From NCBI GenBank assembly GCA_020638635.1, contig JACKIE010000003.1, forward strand, positions 68,362 to 132,361: DNA of 64,000 bases, written 5' to 3'. This document shows, piece by piece, positions 5,150-45,140 of this stretch. The notes under the pieces are model-generated. The model made no database searches. It saw only the letters and a list, made by a program, of their open reading frames with translations, and was not told the DNA's origin. The stretch is from Planctomycetota bacterium. Its GTDB lineage: Bacteria > Planctomycetota > UBA8742 > UBA2392. Position numbers and translations under genes: made by a program. Every line of letters begins with the position of its first letter. Position 1 is the first letter of the stretch.

Positions 5150-6208
5150 CTCACGCCGGCACGCAGCCAGCACGCGCTCCACGCTGATCGCCTGCATGCA
5201 GCGGTGGTCGATCGGGCATTCCTTCAACTGGCAGGGCCAGCTGTACGGGCTGCAATCCACGGGCTCGCGGATCACCTCCCCGCGCTCGACTTCCGGCAGC
5301 GCCGTGTAGCGCGGGTCGTTGGGGCCCATCACGCACACCACCGGCCGGCCCAGCGCCACCGCAATGTGCCGCGGACCTGTGTCGTTGGTCAGCACCAGCG
5401 CGGCGCGCTCGTACACGCCTTTCATCGCCCCCAGCCCCAGGCCCACCACCGTGGGGTAGTCGCGCCCGGCGGCCTGTCGCACACCCGCGCCCTCGGCCTG
5501 CTCGTTGGGCGCGATGCTCAGCAGCACCTTCGCGCCTTCGTCGGCCAGGGCGTTCAGCACGGCCGCGTAGCGCTCGAAGGGCCACAGTTTGCTGGGGCCG
5601 AAGGCGCCGCCCGGTGCGCAGATCACCAGGGGGCCGCCTGTCAGGCCCTTGTCATCGAGGAAGCGGGCGGCGGCATCCCGGTCGGCGTCGCTGACCGGCA
5701 GGCTGGGGACCAGCTCGCCGGGTGGCAGGCCGATCGCATCCAGCAGCTCCATGAAGTATCGGCCGGTGTACTTGGGCACGAACTTGCCTTCGTCGTCGTG
5801 GTCGCGCTCGCGCCCGGCGTGCAGCAGGAAGCGGCGGCCGTCCTTGAAGTAGCCGACGCGGCGCTTCACGCGGCCCTGCATGAACTGCCAGGCGCTGCTG
5901 AAGCTGTTGGGGAAGATGATGCCGAGGTCGAACTTGCGGCGCCGCAGCTCTGTGGCGAACTTGCTGCCGCCCAGCAGTCCGCGGTGGGCGCCCTTGCGGT
6001 CATAAGCCAGGATTTCGTGAAACCACGAGTTACCCTGCAGCAGCGGCACGCCGATCGGCAGGCACACGAGCGTGAGGCGCTCAGGCCCGAAGTGCGCGGC
6101 CAGGCGTGCGAAGGCGGGCGTGGCCATCACCAGGTCGCCCAGCGCGTTGGGGGCGCGCACGACCACGTTGCGGGAGTCCAGAAGCTCGCGTACCATCGAA
6201 GCGATCAT
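5135..6208 (-). CDS. Glycosyltransferase family 9 (ADP-heptose:LPS heptosyltransferase-like)
   Basis: VVRAPNALGDLVMATPAFARL..., ...LTNDTGPRHIAVALGRPVVCVMGP..., C-terminal CPIDHRCMQAIS. I trimmed the track ORF (5135..6652) to ATG 6208, because the upstream 148 codons are antisense to the neighbouring gene. Confidence 0.8.
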   Translation of the reverse strand: MIASMVRELLDSRNVVVRAPNALGDLVMATPAFARLAAHFGPERLTLVCLPIGVPLLQGNSWFHEILAYDRKGAHRGLLGGSKFATELRRRKFDLGIIFPNSFSSAWQFMQGRVKRRVGYFKDGRRFLLHAGRERDHDDEGKFVPKYTGRYFMELLDAIGLPPGELVPSLPVSDADRDAAARFLDDKGLTGGPLVICAPGGAFGPSKLWPFERYAAVLNALADEGAKVLLSIAPNEQAEGAGVRQAAGRDYPTVVGLGLGAMKGVYERAALVLTNDTGPRHIAVALGRPVVCVMGPNDPRYTALPEVERGEVIREPVDCSPYSWPCQLKECPIDHRCMQAISVERVLAACRRELAGG

Positions 6209-6223
6209 AGCCGAAGGGCGTCC

Positions 6224-8839
6224 GTGCGCATCATCCGGGACGATTTCGACAACCTGGTAGACAGCTTTGGCGCGTCTCGCCGCGTGGCGACGCGGCTGGG
6301 CGCGTTGGCGCGTAAGGGCCTGCATGTCAGCGAGACTCTGCTGGAATTCGCGCTGGATGAGGACGGCAAGCCGCTGAGCAAGCTGCTGCTCGCCAAGGCC
6401 CTGCTGGACGGCGCCGACAAGATGAACGACGCCGCCCTGCAGAAACTGGCCGCCAAGCAGGACGCCGATTTCTTCGACGAAAACCCCGTCGCCCTCCGCA
6501 GCGTGAACGGCGCCCGCGTGCTGTGCCTCGCCGAAGAAGCCGAAGGCGCCGAGCCATCCCCCACCGCGCCCGAACAACCGCTGGCCGTGATGCCCGAAGG
6601 CCGCATCACCTCCGTGATCGACCGCGACGAAGCCCGCAAGCTGCTGAGCCACGACGAAATCTCGCGCCTCAAACTCGAGCTGGTCACCAGCGCCGACGTC
6701 GGCCGCCGCCTCGAGGCCGTGCGCAAGCTGTACCTCACCGAGCTGCCGCCCGACGAAAAGCTGCGTCTGTTTTTAGCCGCCCTGCGCGACCGCGAAGCCG
6801 ACGTGCGCGCCGAGGCCGCCCGCGCGCTCGGCGGCCTGGGGCTTGAGGCCGCGCTGACCGAGAACCTGGCCAAGGCCGCGCGCGGCGCCGTGGACGAGCG
6901 CGTGGTGGCGATCAGCAACCTGGCCCGCGTGCTCGGCAAGCTGGATGCCGCCCAGCGCCAGCTTGGCGTCGGGCTGCTGGTCGAGTTCGTGACGGCCTCC
7001 GAGGCCAAAGAGGTGGTGCAGGGTTCACTCGGTGTGCTGGCCGCGCAGTTGCCCGAGTTGGAGGGCGCGAATGCACTCGCCGCACGCCTGCACAAGCAAC
7101 TGGTCGAGCTGCTGCAGGTGCGTTTCGCCGTGTACGAGGACGCCGCCCGCAAGGTGTACTCCACGCTGTTCAAGGCCGACTGCGACGGCACTTCACGACT
7201 GCTTGTGACCAGCATCGAGGAAGTCAGCCAGCCCGAGCTGCGCTTCTTCATACTCAGCCTGCTGACCGAGCACGACCTGGCGGCTGCCTCCGCCCCGGCC
7301 GTGATCAACCAGCTGATCGACGGGCTGCGCCACGGCTCTGAGCTCGACCGCAACTTCCAGGCCTGTTCCGGCGCGCTGAACCGTTTGGGCGAAAAGGCCG
7401 TGCCCGGCCTGCTGAAGGCGCTGGAGGGCGCCGACGACACCGGGCGAGAGCGCGTGATCGACCTGCTGGGCCACATGCTGCGCGGCGGCGAAAGCACCGA
7501 GTTCCCGCTCAAGAAGGCCAGCGCATCGCGCATCGCCAACGCGCTGCTGGCACTGTACGGCGATGCCAGCCCCGAGGTCTGCACGGCGCTACTCGAAAGC
7601 GGCTTCTACGACCACCCGGCGCTCGACGACAAGGCCCGCCGCAAAGCCGCCGAGTTGATTATCGAGGGCATGCACGAGTTCCGCTTCGAGCGTCAACAGG
7701 AACTCGTGCACGCCGCCCTCGAACGCTGCGGCCGCTTTGCCCTTGAGCCTTTGCGCCTGGCCATGCTGGAGTCGGCCTATGACGTCACGCGCCTGTCGGC
7801 CGCGCGCCTGATGCCGGAAATCGCCGCGCACGTGCCGGACGCGAGCGCCGGGCAGTTGCTGGGGATTCTCGATTCCATCCGCAGCCTGACCGACGCCGAA
7901 GAAACCGACTTCCCCGACCGCGGCGCCCTTTACGTCGCGCTGGGGCGCATCGGCGGCCACGGCAGCGTGCCGGCCGACAAGGCCAACGAGCTCGCGGCCG
8001 TGATGCGCGAGCGCCTGGGCCGCTCAAGCAACGTCTACGACATCCTGGAAGGGCTCGGCTACCTGGCCGCCGGCGAGAACCTGTCGCGCGAGGAACGCCT
8101 CGAGATCGGCTACCTGCTGCTGACCGTGCTCAAGCGCGGGCTGCCCAGCATGTCCGGCCGCATGCGCAAGAATGAGGAAGGCGAAGACGTGCTGCACTTC
8201 GGGCGCGAGACCACGGCCTACACGGACATGATCCCGCGCATCCTGGAGGGGTTGGGGCGCATGATCGAGGCCGAGGCCACGCCGGACGTGCTGTTCGAGC
8301 GCATCGCCGAAGAGCTGATCAAGCTGTGGACCGAGATCACTGACTTCAAGCGGGTGTGGGCGCCGGCGGCCACCATGACGCTGGCCCGCCTGCTGGGCGG
8401 CATCGCGCTGGGCCGCCGCTGCAAGCAGCGCATGGCCGAGGACATCACGGACCTGCTGACCCGCAAACTGGTGCTGCTGCCGGTGATGCAGGTGATCAGC
8501 CGCCTGGTGGTTTCGGGCCTGGCCAGCGAACGCATGGACCTGATCGCCCTGCGCGTGTTCAACGAGCTGGCCAAGCGCCTGAACGAAGAGCCCGGCCCCG
8601 AACCCACGGAGCGCCGCCAGATCCTCGAAACCATGACCGCCATCGCCCAGCGCGCGCGCATCGGCGAGAGCGACAAGGAGATCGAGCACGTGCGCCGCGT
8701 CGTGATCGAGGCCCTGTTCGACGCCCTGCGCGACCGCCTGTTCCAGGCCCGCAACATGCTGGAGCAATTGGCGGCCTCAAACGCTCTCACCGAAACCCAG
8801 CGCGCGGACATCAAGCGTCGATTGAAGCCGGCGAAGTAG
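6224..8839 (+). CDS. HEAT-repeat protein (large, cytoplasmic)
   Basis: Repeated HEAT/PBS-lyase-like helices, e.g. LRDREADVRAEAARALGGLG and VDERVVAISNLARVLGKL. The track ORF starts at 5204, but that part is antisense to the GT9 gene. The start is uncertain: GTG 6224 with GAAGGG upstream, or alternatively GTG 6284 or TTG 6305. Confidence 0.7.
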   Translation: MRIIRDDFDNLVDSFGASRRVATRLGALARKGLHVSETLLEFALDEDGKPLSKLLLAKALLDGADKMNDAALQKLAAKQDADFFDENPVALRSVNGARVLCLAEEAEGAEPSPTAPEQPLAVMPEGRITSVIDRDEARKLLSHDEISRLKLELVTSADVGRRLEAVRKLYLTELPPDEKLRLFLAALRDREADVRAEAARALGGLGLEAALTENLAKAARGAVDERVVAISNLARVLGKLDAAQRQLGVGLLVEFVTASEAKEVVQGSLGVLAAQLPELEGANALAARLHKQLVELLQVRFAVYEDAARKVYSTLFKADCDGTSRLLVTSIEEVSQPELRFFILSLLTEHDLAAASAPAVINQLIDGLRHGSELDRNFQACSGALNRLGEKAVPGLLKALEGADDTGRERVIDLLGHMLRGGESTEFPLKKASASRIANALLALYGDASPEVCTALLESGFYDHPALDDKARRKAAELIIEGMHEFRFERQQELVHAALERCGRFALEPLRLAMLESAYDVTRLSAARLMPEIAAHVPDASAGQLLGILDSIRSLTDAEETDFPDRGALYVALGRIGGHGSVPADKANELAAVMRERLGRSSNVYDILEGLGYLAAGENLSREERLEIGYLLLTVLKRGLPSMSGRMRKNEEGEDVLHFGRETTAYTDMIPRILEGLGRMIEAEATPDVLFERIAEELIKLWTEITDFKRVWAPAATMTLARLLGGIALGRRCKQRMAEDITDLLTRKLVLLPVMQVISRLVVSGLASERMDLIALRVFNELAKRLNEEPGPEPTERRQILETMTAIAQRARIGESDKEIEHVRRVVIEALFDALRDRLFQARNMLEQLAASNALTETQRADIKRRLKPAK

Positions 8840-9941: not shown

Positions 9942-10089
9942 GCGATCTTACCGGCCCTGAAAGGGCCATTCTGTCAGCCCAAGGCAAAGCCTTGGGGGAA
10001 TCAAGCGCCGCACAAGACACGGCCCTGAAGGGGCCGTTCACCAGGTCGTCGGCCAACCCGAACCGGCCATGCGCCACAAAAACCCGGCC
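9942..10089. repeat. Cluster of four small GC hairpins (REP-like)
   Basis: GGCCCT-gaa-AGGGCC (9942-9956), CCCAAGGC-aaa-GCCTTGGG (9967-9985), ACGGCCC-tgaag-GGGCCGT (10008-10026), CGGCCT-gcaa-AGGCCG (10074-10089). Confidence 0.7.
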
Positions 10090-10584
10090 TGCAAAGGCCG
10101 TGGGATCAGCAGCGTGCGGCTCACTTACCCGGCCGCACACGTCAAAGGCCCAAGACTGATAAACAGGAAATGGACTCCGGCCGACGAAGGCGTGGGTCAA
10201 CACAACGCCGCGTCCTGTAACTTCCTACCCCTCCTGATCATCGCAGGCCTGCGCGAACTTCCGCCCGCGCCAACCCACTTCGCCGAGGTTTTCATAGGTC
10301 AGGCGGCTTCCGCCTTCGCTGAAGCTATGGCGAGCAAGTCGGCTGACAGGTCGCCCGTTCGCGGAAAGATGTCCACGCGGAGGCGCGTGGGCGCAAAGAG
10401 CTTGCATGCAGGGAAGGCGTTTCAAAGCCGCCGCGCACCTTCATTTGTGAAGGCTCATTTCCGCGCCCGGTGGGCCGTATACAATGATTCCGAGTCTTTG
10501 ATCTTCTCGCGCTATGCAGCTGCCGTGTAATCCCGGTCTAATCTCTCTCTTCCGCTCATCCATTTCGGCGACGTACGTAAATGA

Positions 10585-12423
10585 TCACTCGGGAGAAGAC
10601 CCGGTGTCCGTTTCCAGGCTTGGGCCACCGGGTGTCATCTGGTTGGCATCAATCTCAACTTCCTGGACAGGATGCTCGGCACTGAGCGTCACCTGAACCT
10701 GTACGGGAGTGAAACCATTGCCTCGGGATGCCCAAACTGTGTACGTGCCGCGATTCACGCTGAGTGCTGAAAATGTGTGCGTGTCGCTGCCATCCGTTAG
10801 TACCGGTGCTTCGAACCCCTGGCGGAGCTTCATCACGGCGACGCGGAACTGCTCACCGGACGCCATGTTTTTGAAACGCACGGTGATACTTCCAACGGCC
10901 GTCACGACCACCACATCGCCAAGGTCAACGTGAACACCGGGTTTTGCAGACAGCTCAACAGTGGTGCGCTCGCAGCCCTGCGCTTCGACGTACAATTTGG
11001 TGATGTTCGAGGGCACACCCTTTAAGATAATGACGCCTTCCGTATCGCCCGCGGTACCGTTTCCGGTGTTGCTAAGTTCCCGCCGGTCAACCGTTCCGTC
11101 CTTCCGTTTCTGTAATATCTGATTGCTCAGCTTACGCACAGTATGCCAATTCGGCATGGCGTGATAACGGGTAGACGCGAAGCAGGGCGTGACAGGTTTC
11201 CCAAGCTCATCAACCACGCGGCAGCGGACTGTGATCGGCTCAGCAACCTGCGGCTTGAACACTCTTACTTCCTTTTCCTCAAGGACAAATGGTTCGGACT
11301 CCCACACGCCTCTCGGTCCGGATATTCGAATCACGTACTCCAACCCGGCCAACAACGTGTAGTTGCGGTAGAGTCCACCCCAGTTAGGCTTGCCGAACGT
11401 GCTCCAGATAGCCTCACCTTGGATGTGCATTTCCCACCCTTCATTCTCTCTGAAGCCATCGAGCTCTACATGCACAGCGCAGCGCGGTTCACTGCTTTCA
11501 GGAATTACAACAGTCAGTGACCTTGCATGAGTGTTGAGAGGTATTTCTACACAGAACGGGTTTTTCCAGCCGAGTCGGTATCCGACTGTGCTGATGTTGA
11601 GCCACTGCGCACTCTCAGGCACTTCTAAAGTTACACCAGATCCGTTCACAACCAGACCTGTAGAGCCGACATTGATTCGTGCCAGTGGACCTGCTGACTG
11701 TACTCCCTTGGCCCAGTAAGACACTGTGACAGTTCCTTCAAAAGGAGCTTGATCGGCATATTTTATATCAACAGATATCCGCACCTCGCGGTCAACGACT
11801 ACGATTACCTTGCTATGCGGTGGACTGACTTCGAACACGGTATAATCTGCCGCATCAGCTGTTGCCACACCTGGCGCCCTGTACATATCGCTTGCGAGTT
11901 GCCATGTCAAAGATAGCAGCCGTACATAGAAGTACCCATGTGTTCTCCCCGATGTCTTGACGGTTACTTTGTCGCATCCGTCAGCATTCGCTTCGCTCGT
12001 ATGCCAGTCTAAAAGCGGTGGCTTCGATTCATAAGCCGCATGACGATCGTACTCCGCTACTGATATATACGCATATTCGTAACCCATTCCTGCAACAGTC
12101 TCGTCCGAACGACTACGAAAACAGACGGTAACACTCGACTCTGGCTCCTCACTGGGTCCGGAGTTCGCAGGCAGTTCTACGGCCGGCTGATTTACTTTTA
12201 TCTGGGGCAGCTTCGTCTGGGGCTGTAACTCCCCCGTGCGCTGGCCTGGTTCGTTTTCTGCGGGCTCTTTGAGAAGTTCGAAGCCAATACGGGGCTCATT
12301 TGAGTCGGGTGCTTGCCGGCTCAGCCATATCCAAGCCGCTGCAACGACAAGCAGGATGACAACGCTAGCTATTGCTGTTGCTGTTGCTGTTGCTGTCTCT
12401 CGTTTGGGTCTATCTTTATTCAT
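10585..12423 (-). CDS. Membrane-anchored protein with a Pro/Glu linker and repeated beta-sandwich-like domains (low-GC island gene 1)
   Basis: N-terminal anchor AIASVVILLVVAAAWIWL follows an (AT)n stretch. The rest is beta-rich. GC is visibly lower than in the flanks. I recognised no catalytic motif. Confidence 0.6.
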   Translation of the reverse strand: MNKDRPKRETATATATAIASVVILLVVAAAWIWLSRQAPDSNEPRIGFELLKEPAENEPGQRTGELQPQTKLPQIKVNQPAVELPANSGPSEEPESSVTVCFRSRSDETVAGMGYEYAYISVAEYDRHAAYESKPPLLDWHTSEANADGCDKVTVKTSGRTHGYFYVRLLSLTWQLASDMYRAPGVATADAADYTVFEVSPPHSKVIVVVDREVRISVDIKYADQAPFEGTVTVSYWAKGVQSAGPLARINVGSTGLVVNGSGVTLEVPESAQWLNISTVGYRLGWKNPFCVEIPLNTHARSLTVVIPESSEPRCAVHVELDGFRENEGWEMHIQGEAIWSTFGKPNWGGLYRNYTLLAGLEYVIRISGPRGVWESEPFVLEEKEVRVFKPQVAEPITVRCRVVDELGKPVTPCFASTRYHAMPNWHTVRKLSNQILQKRKDGTVDRRELSNTGNGTAGDTEGVIILKGVPSNITKLYVEAQGCERTTVELSAKPGVHVDLGDVVVVTAVGSITVRFKNMASGEQFRVAVMKLRQGFEAPVLTDGSDTHTFSALSVNRGTYTVWASRGNGFTPVQVQVTLSAEHPVQEVEIDANQMTPGGPSLETDTGSSPE

Positions 12424-12714
12424 CGTTTCAACACTTCACTGGAAGTAGTTGCGCCTTTCTTACAAATATTCTATTAGATACCATACATCATTCGTTCATG
12501 TGTCTCATGTAGCGCTTGTGATACATACTCAGCCCAGGTATGAGTAAGAGCATTCGAGTTATTGACGCATCTGATGGAACGGCATAGGTACGGCGTTAAC
12601 TGGTTTCCGTTGAAGCTCCCATGCAAAGGTGCTATGCATGAGCATTCTTAATTTGCTTCCACCCGTTCCTGCACCCTAGTGTATTAATTGCTCGTGGCAA
12701 GGGCCGTACCAGTC

Positions 12715-13422
12715 CTATTCGAAGTACAACGTGTCGATCGGGACAGGGTTGGCGCCATAGTAATCGTCCCATGCTTCAAGACTACCTTCAGCGCAGGTGC
12801 TCGTCGTTTCGCTGTAAACCTCCAATTCAGGCCGGTCGGTGCCCGCGAAAGCCGTGGCATACAGTTTGTACCACAATGAAAAGTAGTTTTTGTTTGTGAC
12901 AACGACTTCACCTGGTGATCTCACAGCGGAACAGACATCGGATGTGTCTTCGCGCACGATCCTTGCTTCATCTTGAATGTAGTCAGGGTCTGTTTCGGAT
13001 GTATCGAAACCATACTCTACGTTGTGTAAGGCGAGATACACAGTCGATGAATCAGAGTAATGACTGTCGACCCACACGCGGCCATCCACCCACCCGTGAA
13101 CATTGTAAACCCAATCGGGGGAATTCGCGCCACTGATTACACCAGAGATACGGTTCCCGTCATTGATTCCCGCGAATCCGCACTTGTCCTTGTCTAATTC
13201 CCCGGATACATGAACACATGTCCACAATGCAGTATTGCTTCCCATGTCCTTTGACATGTCGATCTCGACTTCGTCCCCCCAGCCATAATCTTCAAGCACG
13301 CCAGAGCTCGTATCGGGATCGACATCGTACGTACAACCTATTGCTTCAATCTTGTATGGTTCATATGTCACCAACAAAGCGGCCACGAGTGCGGCGCATA
13401 TCACGATACTATATTTACGCAT
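12715..13422 (-). CDS. Secreted hypothetical protein (low-GC island gene 2)
   Basis: ATG 13422 gives the signal peptide MRKYSIVICAALVAALLV. The track ORF extends to 13659 through the poly-G tract, but that extension looks non-coding. Confidence 0.55.
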   Translation of the reverse strand: MRKYSIVICAALVAALLVTYEPYKIEAIGCTYDVDPDTSSGVLEDYGWGDEVEIDMSKDMGSNTALWTCVHVSGELDKDKCGFAGINDGNRISGVISGANSPDWVYNVHGWVDGRVWVDSHYSDSSTVYLALHNVEYGFDTSETDPDYIQDEARIVREDTSDVCSAVRSPGEVVVTNKNYFSLWYKLYATAFAGTDRPELEVYSETTSTCAEGSLEAWDDYYGANPVPIDTLYFE

Positions 13423-13492
13423 GATGATCTCTCCAGATTTGGATACAGTGCATCTACATCGCAGATTCTGAATGTGTGGTTGAGGAAGTATA

Positions 13493-13507
13493 CCCCCCCC
13501 CCCCCCC
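13493..13507. repeat. C15 homopolymer (G15 on the gene strand) 71-85 nt upstream of the 12715..13422 start
   Basis: Counted directly: 8 C at 13493-13500 plus 7 C at 13501-13507. Confidence 0.9.
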
Positions 13508-13686
13508 GAAGTTTCAACAGCTAAACATGTAACTGCGACGCCCGTGTTTTTTGCGGCGCGGTTGATGGCATGCTCGGTCTTTTTGGTGTGGTGTTTCGTG
13601 TGCGCGGTTGCCGCTTTGGTGGCCGCACGCCGCGGGGTACTGCTATCTACATAATCCAACTTCTTCGTAGGCTCGCAGACTTCTTC

Positions 13687-14370
13687 CTACGCGTCGAGGA
13701 TTCTGGTGCAGTGGGGACAGCGCAGGATTTCTTTGCGGGCGCGGACCTGCATGGCCAGTTGCGTGTTGATCTCGCCTGAACAGGCCGAGCAGAAGCCTTC
13801 CGCGATCTTTGCCAGCGCCTTGCCCGGGTTGCGGGCGTTCACTTCATCGTAAACCGCAAGCAGCTTGGGCGTGACCAGCGCGGCCGCCGTGGTACGGGCG
13901 GCCTCCGTGGCTTCAATCAACTGCTGCGCCGCTGCCGCCACGTCGGCGTTGGCCTTCAGCTTCGCCGCTTGGATTTCCTGTTTCTGCTTCAGCTCGGTCT
14001 CGGCGACTTGCACTTCCTGCTCGGCGATGGTGACAGCCGTGAGCAGGTCGAGCCCGCCGGTTTCCAGCTCGTCGATCTTGTTGCGCTGCTTGGCGGCGGC
14101 CTCCATGCCGGCCTCGGTGCCCTGGGCCTCGAGTTGCTTCACGCGCGCGTCCAGGCGCAGCAGCTCCTGCTCCAGTTCCTTGTGCTCGCCTTGCAGCTTG
14201 CGGAGTTTGCTTTTGCGTTCCTCAAGGGCTGCCTTGGCGGCCTCGACCTTGGCGTGCTCGGCCTGGTTCTCGCGCTCGAGCTTGGCCAGTTGCTCGCGCT
14301 GGCGCACGATCACGGCGTCGTGTTTCTGCACGGACCACAGGGCGTCAAGGCTTTCGGAGAACTCGGCCAT
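13687..14370 (-). CDS. Coiled-coil zinc-ribbon protein (COG1579/DUF164-like)
   Basis: A long coiled coil is followed by the C-terminal CSACSGEINTQLAMQVRARKEILRCPHCTRIL (CxxC...CxxC). Confidence 0.8.
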   Translation of the reverse strand: MAEFSESLDALWSVQKHDAVIVRQREQLAKLERENQAEHAKVEAAKAALEERKSKLRKLQGEHKELEQELLRLDARVKQLEAQGTEAGMEAAAKQRNKIDELETGGLDLLTAVTIAEQEVQVAETELKQKQEIQAAKLKANADVAAAAQQLIEATEAARTTAAALVTPKLLAVYDEVNARNPGKALAKIAEGFCSACSGEINTQLAMQVRARKEILRCPHCTRILDA

Positions 14371-19909: not shown

Positions 19910-20044
19910 TCAGGGCAGTTGCACATGCGACTGCGTCTGCCGGCGTGGGTCGTCTGGCGTACGCAGGAAGATCAGCAGCAGGCCGAAGCCGACTGCCAGT
20001 GTCGTGCTGAGGGCGACGGCGAAGTAGAAGGCCGTGTGTCTCAT
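19910..20044 (-). CDS. Possible 44-aa single-pass membrane peptide downstream of the selenoprotein candidate
   Basis: My own translation gives MRHTAFYFAVALSTTLAVGFGLLLIFLRTPDDPRRQTQSHVQLP. It is below the track size cut-off and starts 39 nt after the upstream stop. Confidence 0.25.
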   Translation of the reverse strand: MRHTAFYFAVALSTTLAVGFGLLLIFLRTPDDPRRQTQSHVQLP

Positions 20045-20083
20045 GCCGCTACAAACGGCGGAACCGTGCGGGAGTTCGCGGGC

Positions 20084-20776
20084 CTATCGCTTTGCCAGGC
20101 CGTCGAGCCGCCGTGCGTAGTCCTGCGGCTCGACGAAACCCTCGATGCGATCCAGCTCAAGGCCGTCGGCATCGGCGATGATCGCCACGGGAATGCCGAG
20201 CACGCCAAACGCCGACACGGCTTCCGCGTCAAGCTCGAGGTCAAGCACCTTGCGCAGGTACGAGCGCTCCAGCAACTGCTGTACTTCGGTGTCAGGATAC
20301 GTCACGCGTTCCATCTTCACGCAGGGCAGTCAGCCGGGGCCGTGCACGTCAATCAGCACCAGCTTGTCCTCGACGCCGGCCTGCGCGAACAGCTGCCTCA
20401 GCTCCGGCGGAAGGTCCGAGATGTTCCACGCAGGATGGGGTTGGCTGGCGGCCGCTCGCTCGACCAGTTCGCCGCGATAACCGGCGGACTCGATGGCGCC
20501 CAGCATCGCCGGCACGTCCGTCCTGGCGGGATCATAGGTGATATGGAAGGTGTCGCTTGCCAGGTCTGTCTCGAGCTCCTGGATTCCGTCCAGCCCTGCC
20601 AGGGCGTCCTCGACCGCGTTCGGTCAGCCGAGTCACGTGATGCCCTGTACCCGGGTCATGCCGTCCACGCGGATGTAGATATCAGCGGATGATGGGGGCG
20701 CAACCGGGTCGGCCGGAACGCTGGACGCGCAGGCGGCAAGCAGCAGGATGTACAGGATTGCGGAAAGGTTCCTCAA
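20084..20776 (-). CDS. Candidate selenoprotein: lipoprotein with an HMA-like domain (U-x-x-U) fused to a thioredoxin-fold domain (U-x-x-C), with three in-frame TGA codons
   Basis: A single frame runs from TTG 20776 (GGGGA upstream, TAA in frame before it) to the stop at 20084-20086. The only interruptions are TGA at 20633-20635, 20624-20626 and 20330-20332. The signal/lipobox is RNLSAILYILLLAAC. The HMA-like part reads VDGMTRVQGIT-U-LG-U-PNAVEDAL...AMLGAIESAGY. The Trx-like part reads KLVLIDVHGPG-U-LP-C-VKME...GIPVAIIADADG. Confidence 0.6.
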
Positions 20777-20850
20777 TGAGAATCCCCTGATGACGAGTTA
20801 CAGTCTATGATTACGGACAGCGTCGGCGAAACAGGGATTCGGGGGTATTC

Positions 20851-39517: not shown

Positions 39518-40465
39518 GTGCCCCATTTCGCCGATCGCCTGGAAGCCGCCATACAGGCCAAGGGAGCGCCCATCTGCGCTGGCCTTGACCCGCGACCCGA
39601 CTGGGTGCCGCAATCCTTCTTCGATGCCGCCATCAACGCCCACGGCCGTACGCCGCAGGCCGTGCGGGCCGCCGTGCGGGCCTTCTGCCTGGAAGTGCTG
39701 GAGGTGGTGGCGCCGTTCGTGCCCGCAGTGAAGCCCCAGGCCGCGTTCTTCGAGGCTTTGGGTGCCGGCGGCTGGGACGATTTCTTCGCGATCTGCGCCA
39801 GGGCCCGCGAGCTGGGCCTGCTGGTGATCGCCGACGTCAAGCGCGGCGACATCGGCAGCACCGCGGAGGCCTACGCGCAGGCACTGTTCGGGCGACACGA
39901 GATCAAGGGCATCATGATCGAGTCCGCCCACGTGGACTGCGCGACCATCAACCCGTACCTCGGCAGCGACAGCGTGGTGCCGTTCATAGAGCGCGCCAGG
40001 CTGAACGGCGCGGGGTTGTACGTGCTCGCGCGCACCAGCAACCCGGGCAGCGCCGAGTTTCAGCAGCTGCACCTGAAGCCCGAGGGCACTCTGGTTGACG
40101 AGGTCGCCCGGCGCATCGACGCCTGGGGCAGCGAAAGCATCGGCGAGTGCGGCTACAGCGACATCGGCGCCGTGGTAGGCGCCACCCACATCGACGCCGC
40201 GCACCACCTGCGCAAGTTGATGCCGCGCACGCCGTTCCTGGTACCGGGCTGGGGCGCGCAGGGCGGCCACGTGGCCGCCGTGCGGGCCTGTTTCGACGAA
40301 CAAGGCAAGGGCGCAATCGTGAACTCAAGCCGCGGCGTGATGCACGCCTACGCTGCAGGCCCGCTGAAGGACTACGGCGAGACCCACTGGCGAGAGGCCG
40401 TGGAGCAGGCCGTGAAAACCTTCCGCGAAGAGATTGCGCAACTTGCGGCTGAACCCGAGGCATAG
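39518..40465 (+). CDS. pyrF: Orotidine 5'-phosphate decarboxylase (long/type 2)
   Basis: ICAGLDPR, VKPQAAFFE, ADVKRGDIGSTAEAYA. GTG start. Confidence 0.9.
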   Translation: MPHFADRLEAAIQAKGAPICAGLDPRPDWVPQSFFDAAINAHGRTPQAVRAAVRAFCLEVLEVVAPFVPAVKPQAAFFEALGAGGWDDFFAICARARELGLLVIADVKRGDIGSTAEAYAQALFGRHEIKGIMIESAHVDCATINPYLGSDSVVPFIERARLNGAGLYVLARTSNPGSAEFQQLHLKPEGTLVDEVARRIDAWGSESIGECGYSDIGAVVGATHIDAAHHLRKLMPRTPFLVPGWGAQGGHVAAVRACFDEQGKGAIVNSSRGVMHAYAAGPLKDYGETHWREAVEQAVKTFREEIAQLAAEPEA

Positions 40466-40556
40466 CCGGCCGTTACTAAGGAAGGGCCCGGGGTTGTCTC
40501 CAGGTGATGATTTGGGCAGACTTGGCGCCTACCTCATCCAGAACAGGAAAACAGGC

Positions 40557-41633
40557 ATGCGGATTTACCGGCATTTCATTGCTTTGGCGCTGACGGGCCT
40601 GCTGCTGGGCGGCGCGCTGCAGGCGGACAGAGTCACCTACATCAGCGGGTCAGGCACGAAGACAGAGGTCAAGCTGGACGACAACGTGACCGTGACGGGC
40701 TGGACGGCCGCGAAAGTCGAGTACGAGAACGCCGAGAAGAAGAAGTCATCGGTCGCATACAAAGACATCATCGCTGTGGACCGCCAGGGCGGCACGATGG
40801 GCGCTGAGCTTGCGGGGGCACTGGAGCTCGTGGGCTCGGATCCGCGGGCAGCGATCGCCGGGCTGGCAGCTGTGGCGACCAGCGGCAGCGCACTGGACAA
40901 GGAAGAGGCGGCGTACCTGCGCGCGCAACTACTGGACAGCGAGAGCGCCGGCGACCGGTCGCTGGCAGCGGAGGCCGTGAAAGCTTACGACGCCTACATC
41001 AAGTCCTACAAGGCTGGTTTCTTTGCCCGTGAAGCCTATCGCGGCCTGGCCAACCTGCAGAAGCCGGATGCCGCCCGCACCACGCTGAAGAACATGGTAC
41101 GCGCTGACAGCAGCCTTGAGCGGCTGGGCAACCAGCTGTTAGGCGAGCTGGAAGCCGGTGCTGCCAAGTGGGCCGATGCGATCTCCGCGTTCAAGGCCGC
41201 GCAGACCGCCGCCAGAAACGAGAAAGACCTGAACGCCGAATTCCTGGCGATCGCCTGGGAAGGCCTTGCGACGCTGCGGAACGGCAACGCCGCGGGAGCC
41301 AAGACGCTGCTGGAGTCGGTTACTGAGGACTCCAGGCTGGACGATCCCAACACGAACACCGATGAAGTCGCGCTCAGCGTGGCGTTCCGCGCGCTGGGCG
41401 ACGCCCACTTTGAGGGTGACAATTTCCAGAAGGGCTATGACGCATACATCAAGGGCGCCTATTACGCCTGGTGGACCGCCGGCTCCACAGAGGGGCACTG
41501 CCTGGGTCGCGCGTACGTGTGCGCCAAGAAGCTCGAAGGCACGGACGCCAAGTGGAAGAAACGCCGCGACAAGCTGCGCACCGCGCTCGCGCTGGGCTTC
41601 CCGCGCGTGCTGTCTGAGGTCGAAAAGGAATAG
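40557..41633 (+). CDS. Secreted alpha-helical (TPR-like) hypothetical protein
   Basis: Signal peptide MRIYRHFIALALTGLLLGGALQA. The C-terminal two-thirds is helical-repeat-like. Confidence 0.5.
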   Translation: MRIYRHFIALALTGLLLGGALQADRVTYISGSGTKTEVKLDDNVTVTGWTAAKVEYENAEKKKSSVAYKDIIAVDRQGGTMGAELAGALELVGSDPRAAIAGLAAVATSGSALDKEEAAYLRAQLLDSESAGDRSLAAEAVKAYDAYIKSYKAGFFAREAYRGLANLQKPDAARTTLKNMVRADSSLERLGNQLLGELEAGAAKWADAISAFKAAQTAARNEKDLNAEFLAIAWEGLATLRNGNAAGAKTLLESVTEDSRLDDPNTNTDEVALSVAFRALGDAHFEGDNFQKGYDAYIKGAYYAWWTAGSTEGHCLGRAYVCAKKLEGTDAKWKKRRDKLRTALALGFPRVLSEVEKE

Positions 41634-41647
41634 CGCTGACGCAAAGT

Positions 41648-41685
41648 AAACGAGGGACGCCGGCAGGCGTCCCTCGTTTGTTTTG
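41648..41685. terminator. Bidirectional rho-independent terminator between convergent genes
   Basis: AAACGAGGGACGCC-ggca-GGCGTCCCTCGTTT followed by GTTTT. An A-run precedes it on the other side. Confidence 0.75.
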
Positions 41686-41693
41686 ATCACAGG

Positions 41694-42653
41694 CTACTTC
41701 ATTTCCAGCTGGATGGCCTCGAGCACCGTCTCGCCCGTCTTGGTCTTGATCACCTTCTTCAGCATCGCGCCGTCGGACACCCACTCCGTGACTTCCCGGC
41801 CGTCAGCGTTCGTCTTGTACACGTCGCAGACGTACTCGCCGGCGCCTACGGTGAGCTTCACGCCTTTTTCGCTGGGCTTGCCGTAATCTTTGTCCCAGGC
41901 TTCCTTGGTCAGCTCGGACTCGCTGGATTTGGCCTTGGCGTCCGGCGTACCTTCCTTGTCGCAAACCACCACGGTGAGCTTGGCCGATGTCTCCGCGGCA
42001 TCGGACACCGTGCGGCGTTGGTAGGTTTCATCGCGGCCGGTGCCGCTGAGTTTGACAACCAGATAGTTGCCGCTGTTCGCGTAGAAGCGCGGCATCTGAG
42101 AAACCACTTCCTTGACCGGGTCCGCCTTGACCTCGGTGCCGCCCTCTTTGAAGAAGCCGCACAACCATACGATGTCGCGACCATTGGTGACGGTCTTGAC
42201 GACGCCGCCGCAAGGTACGTCCTTGCAGAAGTAGATTGCGCTGGAAGCTTCGCCGATGGTCCATTCGGCCACGTCGCACTTCAAGGGCACGCCGGAAAGC
42301 TCGAGGTCCTGCACGCTCCAGGCGATCACGACGTCCTTGCCGTAGGGCAGCTTGCTCTGCAGCTTGATCGACTCCCACGACTTGGTGAGTTCCTTCTCGC
42401 TGGTCAATTCACCCTTGGCGTAGGTCGCGTGCTTGTAGGTGACCTTTTTGCCGTCAACCTTCACGGCCTCGTAGCGGACCTTGATACCACCCTCCATGGC
42501 ATACTCGGCCCAGTCGCCCTTCTTCACCGTCGCCCAGGTGTTCCAACCGCTTTTCCAGTCGCCCTCCTTGGGCTCCGCCTGGACCGGCGCCTGCTGCCAT
42601 GCCAGCAACGCCAGCACGAAGCAAAGCGTCGCGGCTCGTGTAAGGTGATGCAT
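41694..42653 (-). CDS. Secreted protein, paralog family member P4 (two copies of the repeated domain)
   Basis: Signal peptide ...LALLAWQQAPVQA and RBS GAGGAGGAGG. Domain motifs: FYANSGNY..., VGAGEYVCDV..., C-terminal LEAIQLEMK. Confidence 0.65.
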   Translation of the reverse strand: MHHLTRAATLCFVLALLAWQQAPVQAEPKEGDWKSGWNTWATVKKGDWAEYAMEGGIKVRYEAVKVDGKKVTYKHATYAKGELTSEKELTKSWESIKLQSKLPYGKDVVIAWSVQDLELSGVPLKCDVAEWTIGEASSAIYFCKDVPCGGVVKTVTNGRDIVWLCGFFKEGGTEVKADPVKEVVSQMPRFYANSGNYLVVKLSGTGRDETYQRRTVSDAAETSAKLTVVVCDKEGTPDAKAKSSESELTKEAWDKDYGKPSEKGVKLTVGAGEYVCDVYKTNADGREVTEWVSDGAMLKKVIKTKTGETVLEAIQLEMK

Positions 42654-42713
42654 GCCTCCTCCTCAGTAGAGTGCTTTGGCCCGCCTCAGTGTAGCCGCCG
42701 GCGTCCCGGAAGC

Positions 42714-44024
42714 CTACTCCATCTTGAGCTCGATCAGCTCGATTGTGTGCGATCCCGCGCCACCCGTGCCGGTCTCTTGCGACTTGGCGAGGATGGTGAT
42801 GCCGTTCCAGCTCCAGCTTTCCGTGCCGTCTTCCGCCACTGTGCGGACCGCCGGGTAGCTGCCGGCCTCGGTGGACACCACCTGTTCCTGCTCGCCGGAA
42901 TAGGGGCGGGCCGCTTCTTCCGTGGGGAAGGCGTGTTTCAACGTCTCGGTCGAGACGGGTTTGCCTTCCGCGCTGGTGATGGTGACGCTGTAGCCTGCCT
43001 CGGTCTCGCTGACCTCGGTGACTTCAACACGCGTGGTTTCGCCCTTTGCGCCGCGGGTGACGTAATAGTTGCCCTTGGTGCGGTAGAAGGCGTGCTCGTC
43101 GTGGCCGATGTCGAACTCGATCAGCTCGGATTCGATGCTCTCCATCTTCGAGGCGACCTGCAGCCCGGGCCAATGCACGCTAGTCCATGACTCCACACCG
43201 CCGAGCTTGATCCGGTAGCAGAGGAACTCGCCGGCCGGGCAGGTTTTCAGCTCCATTTCCGGCTGGGAAGCGTAGCTTTCGTCCTCGTAGACGGCCTTGG
43301 GAAACTCCATCTCCTGGTCGTCGCTGAACATCACATTGCCCTTGTCGTCCAGCACCGACAGGGTGTAGGTGACGCCGTCTTCCCGCACCTGCTTGACTTC
43401 GAACTGGGTGGTGCTGTCCGACATCATGCCGGCCATGTCGTAGCTGTTGCGCAGCTTCCAGCGCCGGCCTTGCTTGCGGTACAGCAGCCAGGGATCGGCG
43501 GGAGCATCGAGGAACGCCGTCAACTTGCGGACCGTCACGCTTTTTTTGTCGATGATCACCTGCTTGACGGCCAGGGGGTGATACTCGACGCTGACCCATG
43601 TGGTTTCCTGCCGGTCGTCCGTGTTGGACACCAGCTTCTTACAGCGGAACTTGCGGAAGCCCATGTCCAGCTCGACCTCGGGCAGCTGCTTGCCGGCCCA
43701 GCGCTTGTCGTTCTCGCTGGGCTCGGACAGGTTCACCGTCCTTGCGCTGCCGCCGGACCTGCTGCCGTCGGTGCTGCGCCAGTTGCTGGCGACCTCGGCC
43801 GTTCCGCCTTCGACGTTCTTCACCTTCCAGTCGTGGCGCGTGACCAGGGGGTCGCTGCCGCGAATCCAGAGGATTTCCTTGAGGCTCCAGCTGCGGCCTT
43901 CCAGGGCGTACAGGTTCAGCAGCTTCACGTCAGGATCGGGGCCGGTGTTGGGCTGTTCGTCCTGGGCCAGGGACAACGGGCCGATCAGCAGCAACAGGCA
44001 GAGCGCAAGGCCGAGGCGTTTCAT
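42714..44024 (-). CDS. Secreted protein, paralog family member P3 (three copies of the repeated domain)
   Basis: ATG 44024 (GGAGA RBS) gives MKRLGLALCLLLLIGPLSLAQ. Motifs: LYRKQGRRW, CPAGEFLCYR, SELIEFD, FYRTKGNYY, C-terminal IELIELKME. Confidence 0.65.
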   Translation of the reverse strand: MKRLGLALCLLLLIGPLSLAQDEQPNTGPDPDVKLLNLYALEGRSWSLKEILWIRGSDPLVTRHDWKVKNVEGGTAEVASNWRSTDGSRSGGSARTVNLSEPSENDKRWAGKQLPEVELDMGFRKFRCKKLVSNTDDRQETTWVSVEYHPLAVKQVIIDKKSVTVRKLTAFLDAPADPWLLYRKQGRRWKLRNSYDMAGMMSDSTTQFEVKQVREDGVTYTLSVLDDKGNVMFSDDQEMEFPKAVYEDESYASQPEMELKTCPAGEFLCYRIKLGGVESWTSVHWPGLQVASKMESIESELIEFDIGHDEHAFYRTKGNYYVTRGAKGETTRVEVTEVSETEAGYSVTITSAEGKPVSTETLKHAFPTEEAARPYSGEQEQVVSTEAGSYPAVRTVAEDGTESWSWNGITILAKSQETGTGGAGSHTIELIELKME

Positions 44025-44097
44025 GGCATCTCCAGAAGAGAAGCAGCCGGCAGTGTAGCTAAAGAAGCGTGCAAACTCTGCAATGCAAACCAAATCA

Positions 44098-44121
44098 AAC
44101 GGGCGCCCGCAGGCGCCCGTT
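44098..44121 (-). terminator. Hairpin terminator after paralog P2
   Basis: AACGGGCGCC-cgca-GGCGCCCGTT, with a T-rich run following on the minus strand. Nearly identical to the hairpin at 45141-45166. Confidence 0.65.
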
Positions 44122-44141
44122 GTGCGAATTCGGGAGTCAAC

Positions 44142-45032: not shown

Positions 45033-45140
45033 GGTATCTCCTTGGAGGAAAGACTGGTTATGATCGCTCCTCGGAGACGGATTAGACAGCGCCGGCAGGC
45101 CTGTGTCCACAATCTCATCCGGTCCAACAAGCCCAAAACA

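What the first reader, a model, noticed from the sequence alone, without database searches (positions are those of the whole stretch)
20084..20776. Candidate triple-selenocysteine lipoprotein: HMA-like UxxU fused to thioredoxin-fold UxxC
On the minus strand, one frame runs from TTG 20776 to the stop at 20084. It is broken only by three TGA codons (20633-35, 20624-26, 20330-32). The TTG is preceded by GGGGA 6 nt upstream, and the product begins RNLSAILYILLLAAC, a lipobox signal.

The conceptual 230-aa product has two domains. The first is an HMA/ferredoxin-like domain, ...IYIRVDGMTRVQGIT-U-LG-U-PNAVEDALAGLDGIQELETDLASDTFHITYDPARTDVPAMLGAIESAGY..., where both TGA codons fall where HMA domains carry their CxxC metal ligands. 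The second is a thioredoxin-fold domain, ...KLVLIDVHGPG-U-LP-C-VKMERV...FGVLGIPVAIIADADGLELDRIEGF..., where the TGA replaces the first Cys of CxxC.

Three stops that are all TGA, all on redox or ligand Cys columns, with no frameshift, argue for Sec recoding rather than decay. The ORF track shows only two fragments (61 and 78 aa), so routine annotation would miss the gene or call it a pseudogene. Sec-containing thioredoxin-like and HMA-type proteins are known separately. A secreted fusion with a UxxU diselenide-type site plus UxxC would be unusual.

By eye I could draw only short hairpins after the UGAs: CUC-GGCU-GACCG-AACG-CGGUC-GAG right after the first UGA, and UGCGU-GAAGAUGGA-ACGCG 6 nt after the third. 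SECIS support is therefore unproven.
Basis: partly seen in the sequence, partly recalled or inferred. Interest (0 to 1): 0.85.

Follow-up and report, generated by a model that had tools for sequence, protein, structure and literature searches.

The report
Three-selenocysteine metal-binding thioredoxin lipoprotein gene
A gene that looks broken by three stop codons is an intact, conserved gene of planctomycete bacteria in which each "stop" almost certainly encodes the rare amino acid selenocysteine at a metal-binding or redox site, and current databases annotate it only as a fragment.

Summary
One minus-strand frame (20776-20084) carries three in-frame TGAs.

With U read as C, the product is a lipoprotein signal, an HMA domain (TGAs on both GMTCxxC ligand columns) and a DsbD-gamma-like thioredoxin domain (TGA on the first Cys of CxxC).

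It is not decay:
- 23 loci from Planctomycetota genome bins, down to 35% protein identity, keep the frame and the TGAs.
- dN/dS is 0.16-0.47, including downstream of the TGAs.
- A few relatives carry Cys at column 2 or column 3.

Synonymous sites are frozen at only two places, each a small hairpin whose loop starts 23 nt (23 and 32 nt for the TGA pair) after a TGA. The hairpin after the third TGA degrades in two of the three Cys forms. Its equivalent is invariant in 106 Sec genes of a related thioredoxin family.

NCBI lists the closest orthologue as a 76-aa hypothetical protein. No NCBIfam model passes its cut-off, and a 2026 inventory of 119 selenoprotein families lacks this fusion.

In about six relatives the gene sits beside MerR-like, MerTP-like and CopZ-type genes. 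This suggests an extracytoplasmic soft-metal trap, possibly kept reduced by its own Sec-thioredoxin domain.

Not tested: Sec machinery in the same genome, and any experiment.

The parts
20084..20776 (-). Complete coding sequence: 230 codons plus TAG stop at 20084-20086, with three in-frame TGA (Sec) codons
   Evidence: orthologues
20783..20787 (-). Shine-Dalgarno-like GGGGA, 6 nt upstream of the TTG start
   Evidence: the same GGGGGATTCTCATTG is present in L001
20729..20776 (-). Signal peptide with lipobox L-A-A-C; the lipidated Cys16 codon is at 20729-20731
   Evidence: signal peptide and lipobox Cys are kept in 7 of 7 aligned orthologues, and a hydrophobic leader ending in Cys is visible in most others
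20477..20653 (-). HMA (heavy-metal-associated, ferredoxin-like) domain, residues 42-100
   Evidence: Pfam PF00403 46.3 bits; PDB alignments to ATP7B, CopA, CopZ, MerP
20633..20635 (-). UGA-1 (residue 48), on the first metal-ligand Cys column of GMTCxxC
   Evidence: TGA in all 25 family loci recovered by a pattern that allowed TGA/TGC/TGT here
20624..20626 (-). UGA-2 (residue 51), on the second metal-ligand Cys column
   Evidence: TGA in all but two family loci, Cys (TGC) in L080 and L142
20612..20625 (-). Hairpin H1 (GACCG-AACG-CGGUC), whose stem includes UGA-2; role uncertain
   Evidence: -6.0 kcal/mol, z -3.1; 86% of cells paired in 22 sequences; pair 24-29 is GC:7, CG:5, UA:1 but unpaired in 9
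20593..20605 (-). Hairpin H2 (GCCCU-GGC-AGGGC), candidate SECIS for UGA-2 and UGA-1; the loop starts 23 nt after UGA-2 and 32 nt after UGA-1; in relatives the stem reaches 7-8 bp (window 20590-20608)
   Evidence: RNAalifold finds it unaided; compensatory pairs 38-54 and 39-53; codons GCC, CTG, GGG invariant in 21 of 21 against background 0.31, 0.38, 0.19; -7.6 kcal/mol
20108..20389 (-). Thioredoxin-fold domain related to the DsbD C-terminal (gamma) domain, residues 130-223
   Evidence: Pfam Thioredoxin_2 29.9 bits and Thioredoxin_7 25.1 bits; PDB DsbD-gamma 4ip1 E 3.5e-7
20330..20332 (-). UGA-3 (residue 149), first position of U-L-P-C; the resolving Cys152 codon is at 20321-20323
   Evidence: Cys at this column in L131, L133, L080, P0030, P0031
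20295..20312 (-). Hairpin H3 (GGAACG-CGUGA-CGU[A]UCC), candidate SECIS for UGA-3; the loop starts 23 nt after the UGA
   Evidence: GTG 19/19, ACG 20/21, TAT 17/17 frozen in the family. The equivalent hairpin forms 6 of 6 pairs in 105 of 106 Sec genes of the related Trx-TPR family. It relaxes or is absent in Cys forms. It is weak on its own in the window, -2.8 kcal/mol
19910..20044 (-). Small downstream ORF (44 aa, one predicted hydrophobic helix), starting 39 nt after the stop; possibly co-transcribed; function unknown
   Evidence: conserved sequence in L001 and L004; no NCBIfam hit

Best explanation
The locus is one intact gene for a 230-residue selenoprotein with three selenocysteines.

Shown or directly supported: the gene is conserved under purifying selection through all three UGAs. 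The UGAs sit on the two metal-ligand columns of an HMA domain and on the nucleophilic column of a thioredoxin UxxC motif. Relatives exchange Cys and Sec at columns 2 and 3. Small hairpins with frozen synonymous sites follow the UGAs at SECIS-type distances.

Inferred mechanism of decoding: SelB with Sec-tRNA(Sec) is recruited by hairpin H3 for UGA-3. Hairpin H2, possibly helped by H1, serves the two UGAs that lie 9 nt apart.

Inferred function, about 0.5-0.6 likely: after export and lipidation at Cys16 the protein is tethered on the extracytoplasmic face of a membrane. Its HMA domain captures soft metal ions (Hg(II), Cu(I), Ag(I) or Cd(II)) with a bis-selenolate U48/U51 site, much as MerP or CopZ do with two thiolates. 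The fused DsbD-gamma-like domain uses U149/C152 to keep that pair reduced in an oxidising compartment, because a diselenide is hard for thiols to reduce. Alternatively it helps release or hand over the metal. It would draw electrons from a CcdA/DsbD-type membrane reductase that has not been identified.
For: Frame, TGAs, signal peptide and domains.

Orthologues: those at 70% identity (L001, L004) and 20 further Planctomycetota loci down to 35% identity keep the frame and the TGAs.

Selection: dN/dS is 0.16 (L001 vs L004) and 0.40-0.47 (window vs either), with about the same values between UGA-2 and UGA-3 and after UGA-3. The binomial P for a deficit of non-synonymous changes ranges from 7e-6 to 0.02.

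Cys/Sec interchange.

Frozen synonymous sites: of 40 conserved degenerate columns, only the H2 codons (GCC, CTG, GGG) and the H3 codons (GTG, ACG, TAT) are fixed, plus one Ile column at 20/21.

Hairpins: H2 is predicted by RNAalifold with compensatory pairs; 85.7% of cells pair against 27-53% when partners are slid; the covariation score is 0.142 against 0.084, reached by 0 of 500 shuffles. H2 meets all four bSECIS model criteria quoted in PMC13188914: 3-nt loop GGC, 5-bp stem, spacing 23 and 32 nt, -7.6 kcal/mol. The H3 equivalent has GAT 105/106, ACG 106/106 and TAT 106/106 in the related Sec family. In the three Cys forms it is absent from L133, degraded in L080 (GAC and TAC restored, -3.0 vs -6.0 kcal/mol) and replaced in L131 by a different 4-bp hairpin of -5.0 kcal/mol.

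Genetic code: TGA serves as an ordinary stop elsewhere in the window.

Lineage: some Planctomycetes carry complete Sec machinery (PMC4807772).

Metal context in relatives: MerR-family regulator, MerTP-like transporter (115 bits), CopZ_Nterm_CC metallochaperone (125.5 bits, above its cut-off of 100), and large upstream ORFs in L139 and L126 whose sequence looks like RND heavy-metal efflux pumps, identified by eye only.
Against: selA, selB, selC and selD could not be looked for in this genome. The 64-kb window holds none, and no tRNA-Sec lies in the fetched planctomycete loci.

Single-sequence folding is unremarkable (z -0.95 and +0.74). H3 in the window is only -2.8 kcal/mol and needs a bulged register. 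No Rfam SECIS family matches.

H2's core pairs never vary, and part of its sequence was fixed by my search pattern. Only third codon positions and the flanking pairs are free evidence. The family sequences are related, so counts are not independent.

The window copy sits among housekeeping genes (dnaG, rpoD, a PLP enzyme), not metal genes. The functional inference is therefore borrowed from a subset of paralogous or orthologous loci.

There is no structure model and no experiment.
Confidence: 0.8

Rival explanations
1. The UGAs are recoded or read through, but not as selenocysteine. Options include SelB/SECIS-dependent insertion of Cys by a selC-like tRNA-Cys, or near-cognate or suppressor read-through giving Trp, Cys or Arg.
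For: Nothing here identifies the inserted residue. Comparative data only show that translation continues and that an RNA element is constrained. One database protein (P0143) was translated with W at both HMA positions, which is most simply a gene-caller artefact.
Against: All three positions are Cys/Sec columns of redox or ligand motifs, and relatives alternate with Cys. The H3-type hairpin is shared with 106 genes, mostly from Desulfobacterota, which are classic Sec users. TGA terminates other genes of the window. If Cys were meant, a TGC or TGT codon would be cheaper, and some relatives do use one.
Confidence: 0.07
2. The TGAs are real stops. The locus encodes separate small products, for example a 47-residue lipopeptide and a 76-78-aa thioredoxin fragment starting at an internal Met or Val. 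This is how databases now annotate it.
For: Gene callers do call the C-terminal piece. NCBI MCG3184662.1 is a 76-aa hypothetical protein in the Bin_90R bin. 26 of the best 150 exhaustive-search hits start exactly at the Met after UxxCxx.
Against: A thioredoxin fold lacking its first strand and active site, or an HMA fold lacking its ligands, would not be functional. There is no ribosome-binding site or conserved start after UGA-2. Purifying selection and an unbroken frame span every junction in 23 loci. Cys-form relatives are continuous proteins (L131, L133, L080).
Confidence: 0.04
3. It is a decaying pseudogene of a Cys-containing HMA-thioredoxin gene that acquired three nonsense mutations.
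For: Each TGA is one substitution away from TGC or TGT. The window alone cannot exclude this.
Against: The same three TGAs occur in loci down to 35% identity with no other stop or frameshift. dN/dS is well below 1 downstream of the TGAs. Synonymous sites are frozen into hairpins behind the TGAs. The chance placement of the TGAs is about 2e-6.
Confidence: 0.02

Closest known systems
[quoted passage not shown]
   Same: HMA fold with Sec at both positions of the CxxC ligand motif. The window protein matches the model over residues 42-106 at 45.4 bits.
   Different: The score is below the curated cut-off of 95. NF041115 is a stand-alone domain of about 74 aa. Here the domain is preceded by a lipoprotein signal and fused to a Sec-thioredoxin domain. 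The local motif is GIT-U-xx-U-PN, and the family is confined to Planctomycetota.
Thioredoxin-like UxxC selenoproteins of the Thioredoxin_2/7 type. These include the roughly 200-aa 'FFNPG-U-IGCQQMDAVTYP ... [quoted passage not shown]
   Same: The same U-x-x-C-x-x-M-[DE]-x-V-T-Y-P motif, and the same hairpin (GGAxxx / xxxUCC, loop containing GU) starting 17 nt after the UGA. Pfam PF13098 is above its cut-off.
   Different: No TPR-like C-terminal extension and a short 80-aa C-terminal half. An N-terminal HMA domain and a lipobox are added. The taxonomic range differs: mostly Desulfobacterota for the Trx-TPR proteins, Planctomycetota for the fusion. The identity of the Trx-TPR family with the published one was not tested.
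MerP and CopZ (periplasmic Hg(II)-binding protein; Cu(I) chaperone)
   Same: Same fold and ligand positions. MerP is likewise exported. In six relatives the gene lies beside MerR-like and MerTP-like genes.
   Different: Scores are below the equivalog cut-offs: MerP 37.7 vs 92.55, CopZ 48.8 vs 91. The ligands are Sec rather than Cys. The protein is lipid-anchored rather than soluble and has a fused reductase-type domain.
DsbD C-terminal (gamma) domain, and related periplasmic reductases of the TlpA type
   Same: It is the best structural-sequence match of the C-terminal domain (PDB 4ip1, 2fwe, 1uc7; E 3.5e-7 to 7e-7). It too is an extracytoplasmic reducing thioredoxin fold.
   Different: There are no DsbD alpha or beta domains (41.8 bits vs a cut-off of 330). 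The nucleophile is Sec. The electron donor is unknown.
Multi-Sec bacterial selenoproteins, e.g. the arsenite methyltransferase/AhpD fusion (NF041537, 3 Sec) and the MerT/CopZ fusion-like heavy-metal transport selenoprotein (NF045683)
   Same: These are fusions of two domains that each carry Sec, with links to metal or metalloid handling.
   Different: The domains are unrelated (NF041537), or the architecture is a membrane transporter (NF045683, 31.4 bits vs a cut-off of 375). Among the 119 families in the review, only that one family has three Sec residues.

Membership tests
Bacterial selenoprotein gene (UGA recoded as Sec) | In-frame UGA conserved in orthologues, with the frame and selection continuing downstream | tested here: met
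Bacterial selenoprotein gene (UGA recoded as Sec) | Cys-containing homologues aligned at the UGA column | tested here: met
   Columns 1 and 2: HMA structures. Column 2: L080 and L142. Column 3: L131, L133, L080, P0030, P0031.
Bacterial selenoprotein gene (UGA recoded as Sec) | bSECIS stem-loop: 3-9 nt loop with G in its first two positions, 4-16 bp stem, 16-37 nt from the UGA, MFE at most -7.5 kcal/mol (criteria from PMC13188914) | tested here: inconclusive
   H2 meets all four: loop GGC, 5 bp, 23 and 32 nt, -7.6 kcal/mol. H3 meets the loop, stem and spacing criteria (CGUGA, 6 bp with a bulge, 23 nt), but its core is only -2.8 kcal/mol in the window and -6.0 in relatives. Comparative support is strong. 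No Rfam hit.
Bacterial selenoprotein gene (UGA recoded as Sec) | selA, selB, selC (tRNA-Sec) and selD present in the same genome | not testable with these tools
   Only 64 kb of this genome is available and it holds none. Collection scans cannot be aimed at one genome. Literature shows some Planctomycetes have the full set (PMC4807772).
Bacterial selenoprotein gene (UGA recoded as Sec) | Selenium demonstrated in the protein (75Se labelling or mass spectrometry) | not testable with these tools
   experimental
HMA domain (Pfam PF00403) | Profile score above the gathering threshold | tested here: met
   46.3 bits vs 24.8
HMA domain (Pfam PF00403) | Two metal ligands in the GMxCxxC loop | tested here: met
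   GIT-U-LG-U aligns with GMTCxxC; the ligands are Sec instead of Cys
NF041115 UxxU metal-binding (seleno)protein | Score above the curated cut-off (95 bits); single-domain protein of about 74 aa | tested here: not met
   45.4 bits; the protein has 230 aa and two domains
MerP (TIGR02052) / CopZ (NF033795) | Score above the equivalog cut-off | tested here: not met
   37.7 vs 92.55 and 48.8 vs 91
Thioredoxin_2 (Pfam PF13098) | Profile score above the gathering threshold, with a CxxC-type active site at the start of helix 1 | tested here: met
   29.9 bits vs 27; U-L-P-C sits where relatives have C-x-x-C
DsbD (NF001419) | Full three-domain protein above the cut-off | tested here: not met
   41.8 vs 330; only the gamma-domain region 447-572 matches
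Bacterial lipoprotein | Signal peptide ending in the lipobox [LVI][ASTVI][GAS]C | tested here: met
   L-A-A-C at residues 13-16, kept in 7 of 7 aligned orthologues. Processing by Lgt and Lsp is not testable.
mer-type or metal-resistance operon member | Adjacent metal regulator, transporter or efflux genes | tested here: not met
   The window neighbours are dnaG, rpoD, tRNA-Glu, a PLP enzyme and a Ser/Thr kinase. The feature is met only in relatives L122, L132, L133, L134, L135 and L139.

The most novel reading that the evidence does not exclude
A phylum-specific extracytoplasmic selenoprotein in which one small SECIS hairpin (H2) programs two UGA codons only 9 nt apart. Its bis-selenolate HMA site works as a periplasmic trap for Hg, Cu or Ag and is regenerated by a covalently attached Sec-thioredoxin. 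It would be part of a wider secreted multi-Sec proteome in Planctomycetota that includes single reading frames with five UGAs, two of them adjacent (L136, L128).
Probability: 0.3. Interest if true: 0.8.

Novelty: new variant of a known kind. Interest (0 to 1): 0.62.

Why it matters
Annotation. Gene callers split or truncate this gene everywhere. The NCBI orthologue is a 76-aa hypothetical protein, and 26 of the best 150 hits in a 1.84-billion-protein library begin at the Met just after the third UGA. A whole conserved planctomycete family is therefore invisible.

Biology. Proteins with three Sec residues are very rare: one family among the 119 listed in a 2026 review. A lipid-anchored protein that pairs a Sec-Sec metal site with a Sec-Cys redox site is a natural experiment on why selenium replaces sulfur in metal binding, and on how a diselenide is recycled outside the cytoplasm.

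Recoding. Two UGAs 9 nt apart followed by a single well-supported hairpin give a compact, mutable system. It can test how strict the UGA-to-SECIS spacing really is in bacteria.

Practical use. The motif patterns used here recover the family cleanly, with 23 hits against about 2 expected by chance. They could seed a curated model.

Tried and rejected
(1) The word-indexed protein search with the U-to-C protein found nothing. Orthologues exist in databases only as fragments.

(2) The exhaustive search and the structure predictor refuse sequences that are not literal window translations. I therefore searched with the 81-aa C-terminal fragment only, and no structure was predicted.

(3) The search for related loci with family alignments failed for lack of a conserved 7-10-column stretch. 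I replaced it with hand-written degenerate DNA patterns.

(4) Rfam gave no SECIS or tRNA-Sec hit at the gathering threshold or at a permissive E-value.

(5) ARAGORN found no tRNA-Sec in the window or in 30 related loci.

(6) Pfam annotation of 40 further window ORFs found no selA, selB or selD.

(7) Single-sequence folding downstream of the UGAs is not distinguishable from shuffles. Two of the four sub-regions in that call were mis-specified by me and should be ignored; they were corrected.

(8) A fixed-register model of H3 fits only the 'MD' subgroup. The 'MER' subgroup, which includes the window, needs a one-nucleotide bulge.

(10) The 257-aa ORF on the opposite strand (19919-20692) has no coding signature and was rejected.

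(11) Looking up a neighbouring protein gave only an uninformative 1.3-kb Logan contig.

(12) Literature searches found no description of the fusion.
Full report
**Observation.** On the minus strand a single frame runs from TTG (20776-20774) to TAG (20086-20084). It is interrupted only by TGA at 20635-20633, 20626-20624 and 20332-20330. GGGGA lies 6 nt before the TTG. The product begins with a signal peptide ending in the lipobox L-A-A-C. The mechanical ORF list shows only the 61- and 78-aa fragments.

With U read as C, Pfam finds HMA (46.3 bits, cut-off 24.8, residues 42-100) and Thioredoxin_2 (29.9 bits, cut-off 27, residues 137-223). Alignments to solved structures put the first two TGAs exactly on the two Cys of GMTCxxC in ATP7B, CopA, CopZ and MerP. 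They identify the second domain as a relative of the DsbD C-terminal domain.

A window-wide scan for TGAs flanked on both sides by coding-type codon composition returns only these three, plus one antisense artefact. Other genes in the window (dnaG, murE, murF and others) end in TGA, so the code is standard.

**Not decay.** A Planctomycetota genome bin (L001, 70% protein identity) and a metagenome contig (L004, 70%) carry syntenic orthologues. Both have all three TGAs at the same columns, and the residues between the first two differ (U-LD-U versus U-LG-U). Nei-Gojobori dN/dS is 0.16 for L001 against L004, and 0.40 and 0.47 for the window against each. Values are similar between UGA-2 and UGA-3 and after UGA-3. 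The binomial P for the shortage of non-synonymous changes ranges from 7e-6 to 0.02. A pseudogene would drift towards 1 after its first stop.

**A family.** The exhaustive profile search with the 81-aa C-terminal fragment gave 202 hits. Of the best 150, 26 are short proteins (23 of them at most 82 aa) that start exactly at the Met following U-x-x-C-x-x, which is the signature of truncated gene calls. Several longer hits are HMA-thioredoxin fusions whose N-terminus is cut just where the HMA ligands should be.

I then wrote degenerate DNA patterns and scanned one genome per species.
Of these, 106 are a thioredoxin-plus-TPR protein of about 200 aa, mostly from Desulfobacterota. Five are three-TGA HMA-thioredoxin lipoproteins, all from Planctomycetota.
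- The pattern G-I-T-[U/C]-xx-[U/C]-P..V..AL.G gave 23 loci against about 2 expected by chance. All are Planctomycetota bins except one labelled only 'uncultured bacterium'. Twenty-one are U-xx-U, two are U-xx-C (L080, L142) and none is C-xx-C.

Three members (L131, L133, L080) have CxxC in the thioredoxin site. Seven aligned members, down to 35% identity, keep the lipobox Cys, all three U and the resolving Cys. Cys/Sec interchange at homologous columns is the standard criterion for a selenoprotein, and it is met.

**SECIS evidence.** Folding the window sequence alone is uninformative, with z-scores of -0.95 and +0.74. The evidence comes from comparison.

Among 40 conserved, degenerate amino-acid columns in 21 members, the commonest codon usually accounts for 42-84%. 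Only six columns are essentially fixed, apart from one Ile column at 20 of 21:
- GCC, CTG and GGG, each 21/21 against background usage of 0.31, 0.38 and 0.19. These form hairpin H2.
- GTG 19/19, ACG 20/21 and TAT 17/17 against background 0.40, 0.45 and 0.30. These form hairpin H3.

H2 (window 20605-20593, GCCCU-GGC-AGGGC, up to 8 bp in relatives) is predicted by RNAalifold without guidance. Its outer pairs covary: pair 38-54 is AU 10, CG 5, GC 1, and pair 39-53 is AU 12, GU 5, GC 1. For H1 plus H2, 85.7% of cells pair against 27-53% when partners are slid. The covariation score is 0.142 against 0.084, reached by 0 of 500 shuffles. The H2 loop starts 23 nt after UGA-2 and 32 nt after UGA-1. Together with its G-first loop, 5-bp stem and -7.6 kcal/mol, it satisfies the published bacterial SECIS model (PMC13188914) for both codons.

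H3 (window 20312-20295) has its loop 23 nt after UGA-3. Its equivalent, GGAUNC-NGUNAC-GUAUCC, forms 6 of 6 pairs in 105 of the 106 Trx-TPR Sec genes. There the free synonymous positions are frozen: GAT 105/106, ACG 106/106 and TAT 106/106, against backgrounds of 0.30 for ACG and 0.53 for TAT.

The Cys forms behave as expected for a SECIS that is no longer needed. In L080 the preferred GAC and TAC codons return and the hairpin weakens from -6.0 to -3.0 kcal/mol. In L131 and L133 the GGA...UCC element is gone, although L131 folds a different 4-bp hairpin of -5.0 kcal/mol at that spot.

Caveats:
- H3 in the window's 'MER' subgroup needs a bulged register and is only -2.8 kcal/mol.
- The core pairs of H2 never vary, and their first two codon positions were fixed by my pattern.
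- The sequences are related, so the counts are not independent.
- Rfam has no match.
- H1 (20625-20612) includes UGA-2 in its stem and is partly conserved. Its role is open.

**Function.** Both domains have well-understood Cys counterparts. HMA domains bind Cu(I), Hg(II) and similar ions through the two loop thiolates. DsbD-gamma and TlpA-type domains are extracytoplasmic reductases. A lipobox places the protein outside the cytoplasm.

In six related loci (L122, L132, L133, L134, L135, L139) the gene lies next to three kinds of metal gene: a MerR/ZntR-family regulator (117 bits), a MerTP-like transporter (115.5 bits) and a CopZ_Nterm_CC iron-sulfur metallochaperone (125.5 bits, above its cut-off). 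In L139 and L126 there is also a large upstream ORF that looks like an RND heavy-metal efflux pump; I judged this from the sequence and did not scan it.

I therefore favour a soft-metal trap or chaperone whose Sec-Sec site is kept reduced, or is unloaded, by the fused Sec-Cys thioredoxin domain. That step, and the electron donor, are inferred. The window copy and its closest orthologues sit among housekeeping genes (dnaG, rpoD, tRNA-Glu, a PLP enzyme, a Ser/Thr kinase, an HtrA-type protease). They are followed only by a conserved 44-aa hydrophobic ORF. The context argument is therefore indirect.

**Known versus new.** UxxU HMA proteins (NF041115) and UxxC thioredoxin-like proteins (PF13098 type) are both listed selenoprotein kinds. 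The window protein scores below every NCBIfam cut-off: NF041115 45.4 vs 95, CopZ 48.8 vs 91, MerP 37.7 vs 92.55, DsbD 41.8 vs 330. The 2026 inventory of 119 families contains no HMA-thioredoxin fusion and only one three-Sec family. Text searches found no description. NCBI annotates the Bin_90R orthologue as a 76-aa hypothetical protein. I class it as a new variant: a new architecture and a new phylum-restricted family, built from known kinds.

**Limits.**
- The window has none of these genes.
- The fetched planctomycete loci hold no tRNA-Sec.
- The collection scans cannot be aimed at a single genome.
- The literature shows that several Planctomycetes do have the full machinery (PMC4807772).
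- Other TGA-containing thioredoxin genes occur in further Planctomycetota bins.

No structure could be predicted, because the tool rejects the U-to-C sequence.

Noticed in passing
L136 (frame from about -1490 to +567 relative to the GIT codon) and L128; also separate genes in L126, L132, L134, L135, L139: A lipoprotein with a PDZ domain and a thioredoxin-like domain carries two adjacent in-frame TGAs (GLSGAET-U-U-P[ST]TRFE). In L136, and apparently L128, it continues without a stop into the HMA(UxxU)-Trx(UxxC) protein, giving five TGAs in one frame. Its best NCBIfam hits are far below cut-off (trx7_PDZ_seleno 31 vs 300 bits). A tandem Sec-Sec dipeptide would be unusual.
   Followed up: partly
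L006-L125 (106 loci): A thioredoxin-plus-TPR-like protein of about 200 aa (FFNPG-U-IGCQQMDAVTYP...YPYRLL) is found mostly in Desulfobacterota, with 117 of 120 pattern hits using TGA. It has a completely frozen hairpin 17 nt after the UGA. No NCBIfam model passes its cut-off for a representative (best is TsoB, 44.9 vs 805 bits).
   Followed up: partly
window 19910-20044 (-): A 44-aa ORF with one hydrophobic helix starts 39 nt after the selenoprotein stop. It is conserved in L001 and L004 and has no family hit.
   Followed up: partly
window 10001-14000: GC content drops to 0.52-0.56 against about 0.65 elsewhere. The ORFs there (10585-12423 and 12715-13659, minus strand) have no Pfam hit. This may be acquired DNA.
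   Followed up: no
window 47610-48896 (+): A 428-aa protein combines TPR repeats with two matches to the C-terminal domain of RNA polymerase alpha. This is an odd architecture.
   Followed up: no
window 5204-8839 (+) and 40434-47483: A 1211-aa ORF and a run of six ORFs (197-459 aa) with good coding signature have no Pfam match at E 1e-5.
   Followed up: no
P0143 (ENA metagenome protein): This database protein reads GVT-W-LS-W-PDSV at the HMA ligand columns. Most likely a gene caller translated the two TGAs as Trp under genetic code 4, so a UxxU member is hidden as a 'WxxW' protein.
   Followed up: no
L121 and L130 (both on contig JAOSKM010000001.1, isolate FR_29): One planctomycete bin carries two copies of the three-TGA gene. 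One is 70% identical to the window protein and has the same tRNA-Glu neighbour. The other is 49% identical and lies next to a MerR-like ORF.
   Followed up: partly
window 52152-53336 (-): A class-V aminotransferase of the cysteine desulfurase / selenocysteine lyase type (Pfam Aminotran_5, 233.6 bits). Whether it relates to selenium metabolism cannot be told from the sequence.
   Followed up: no
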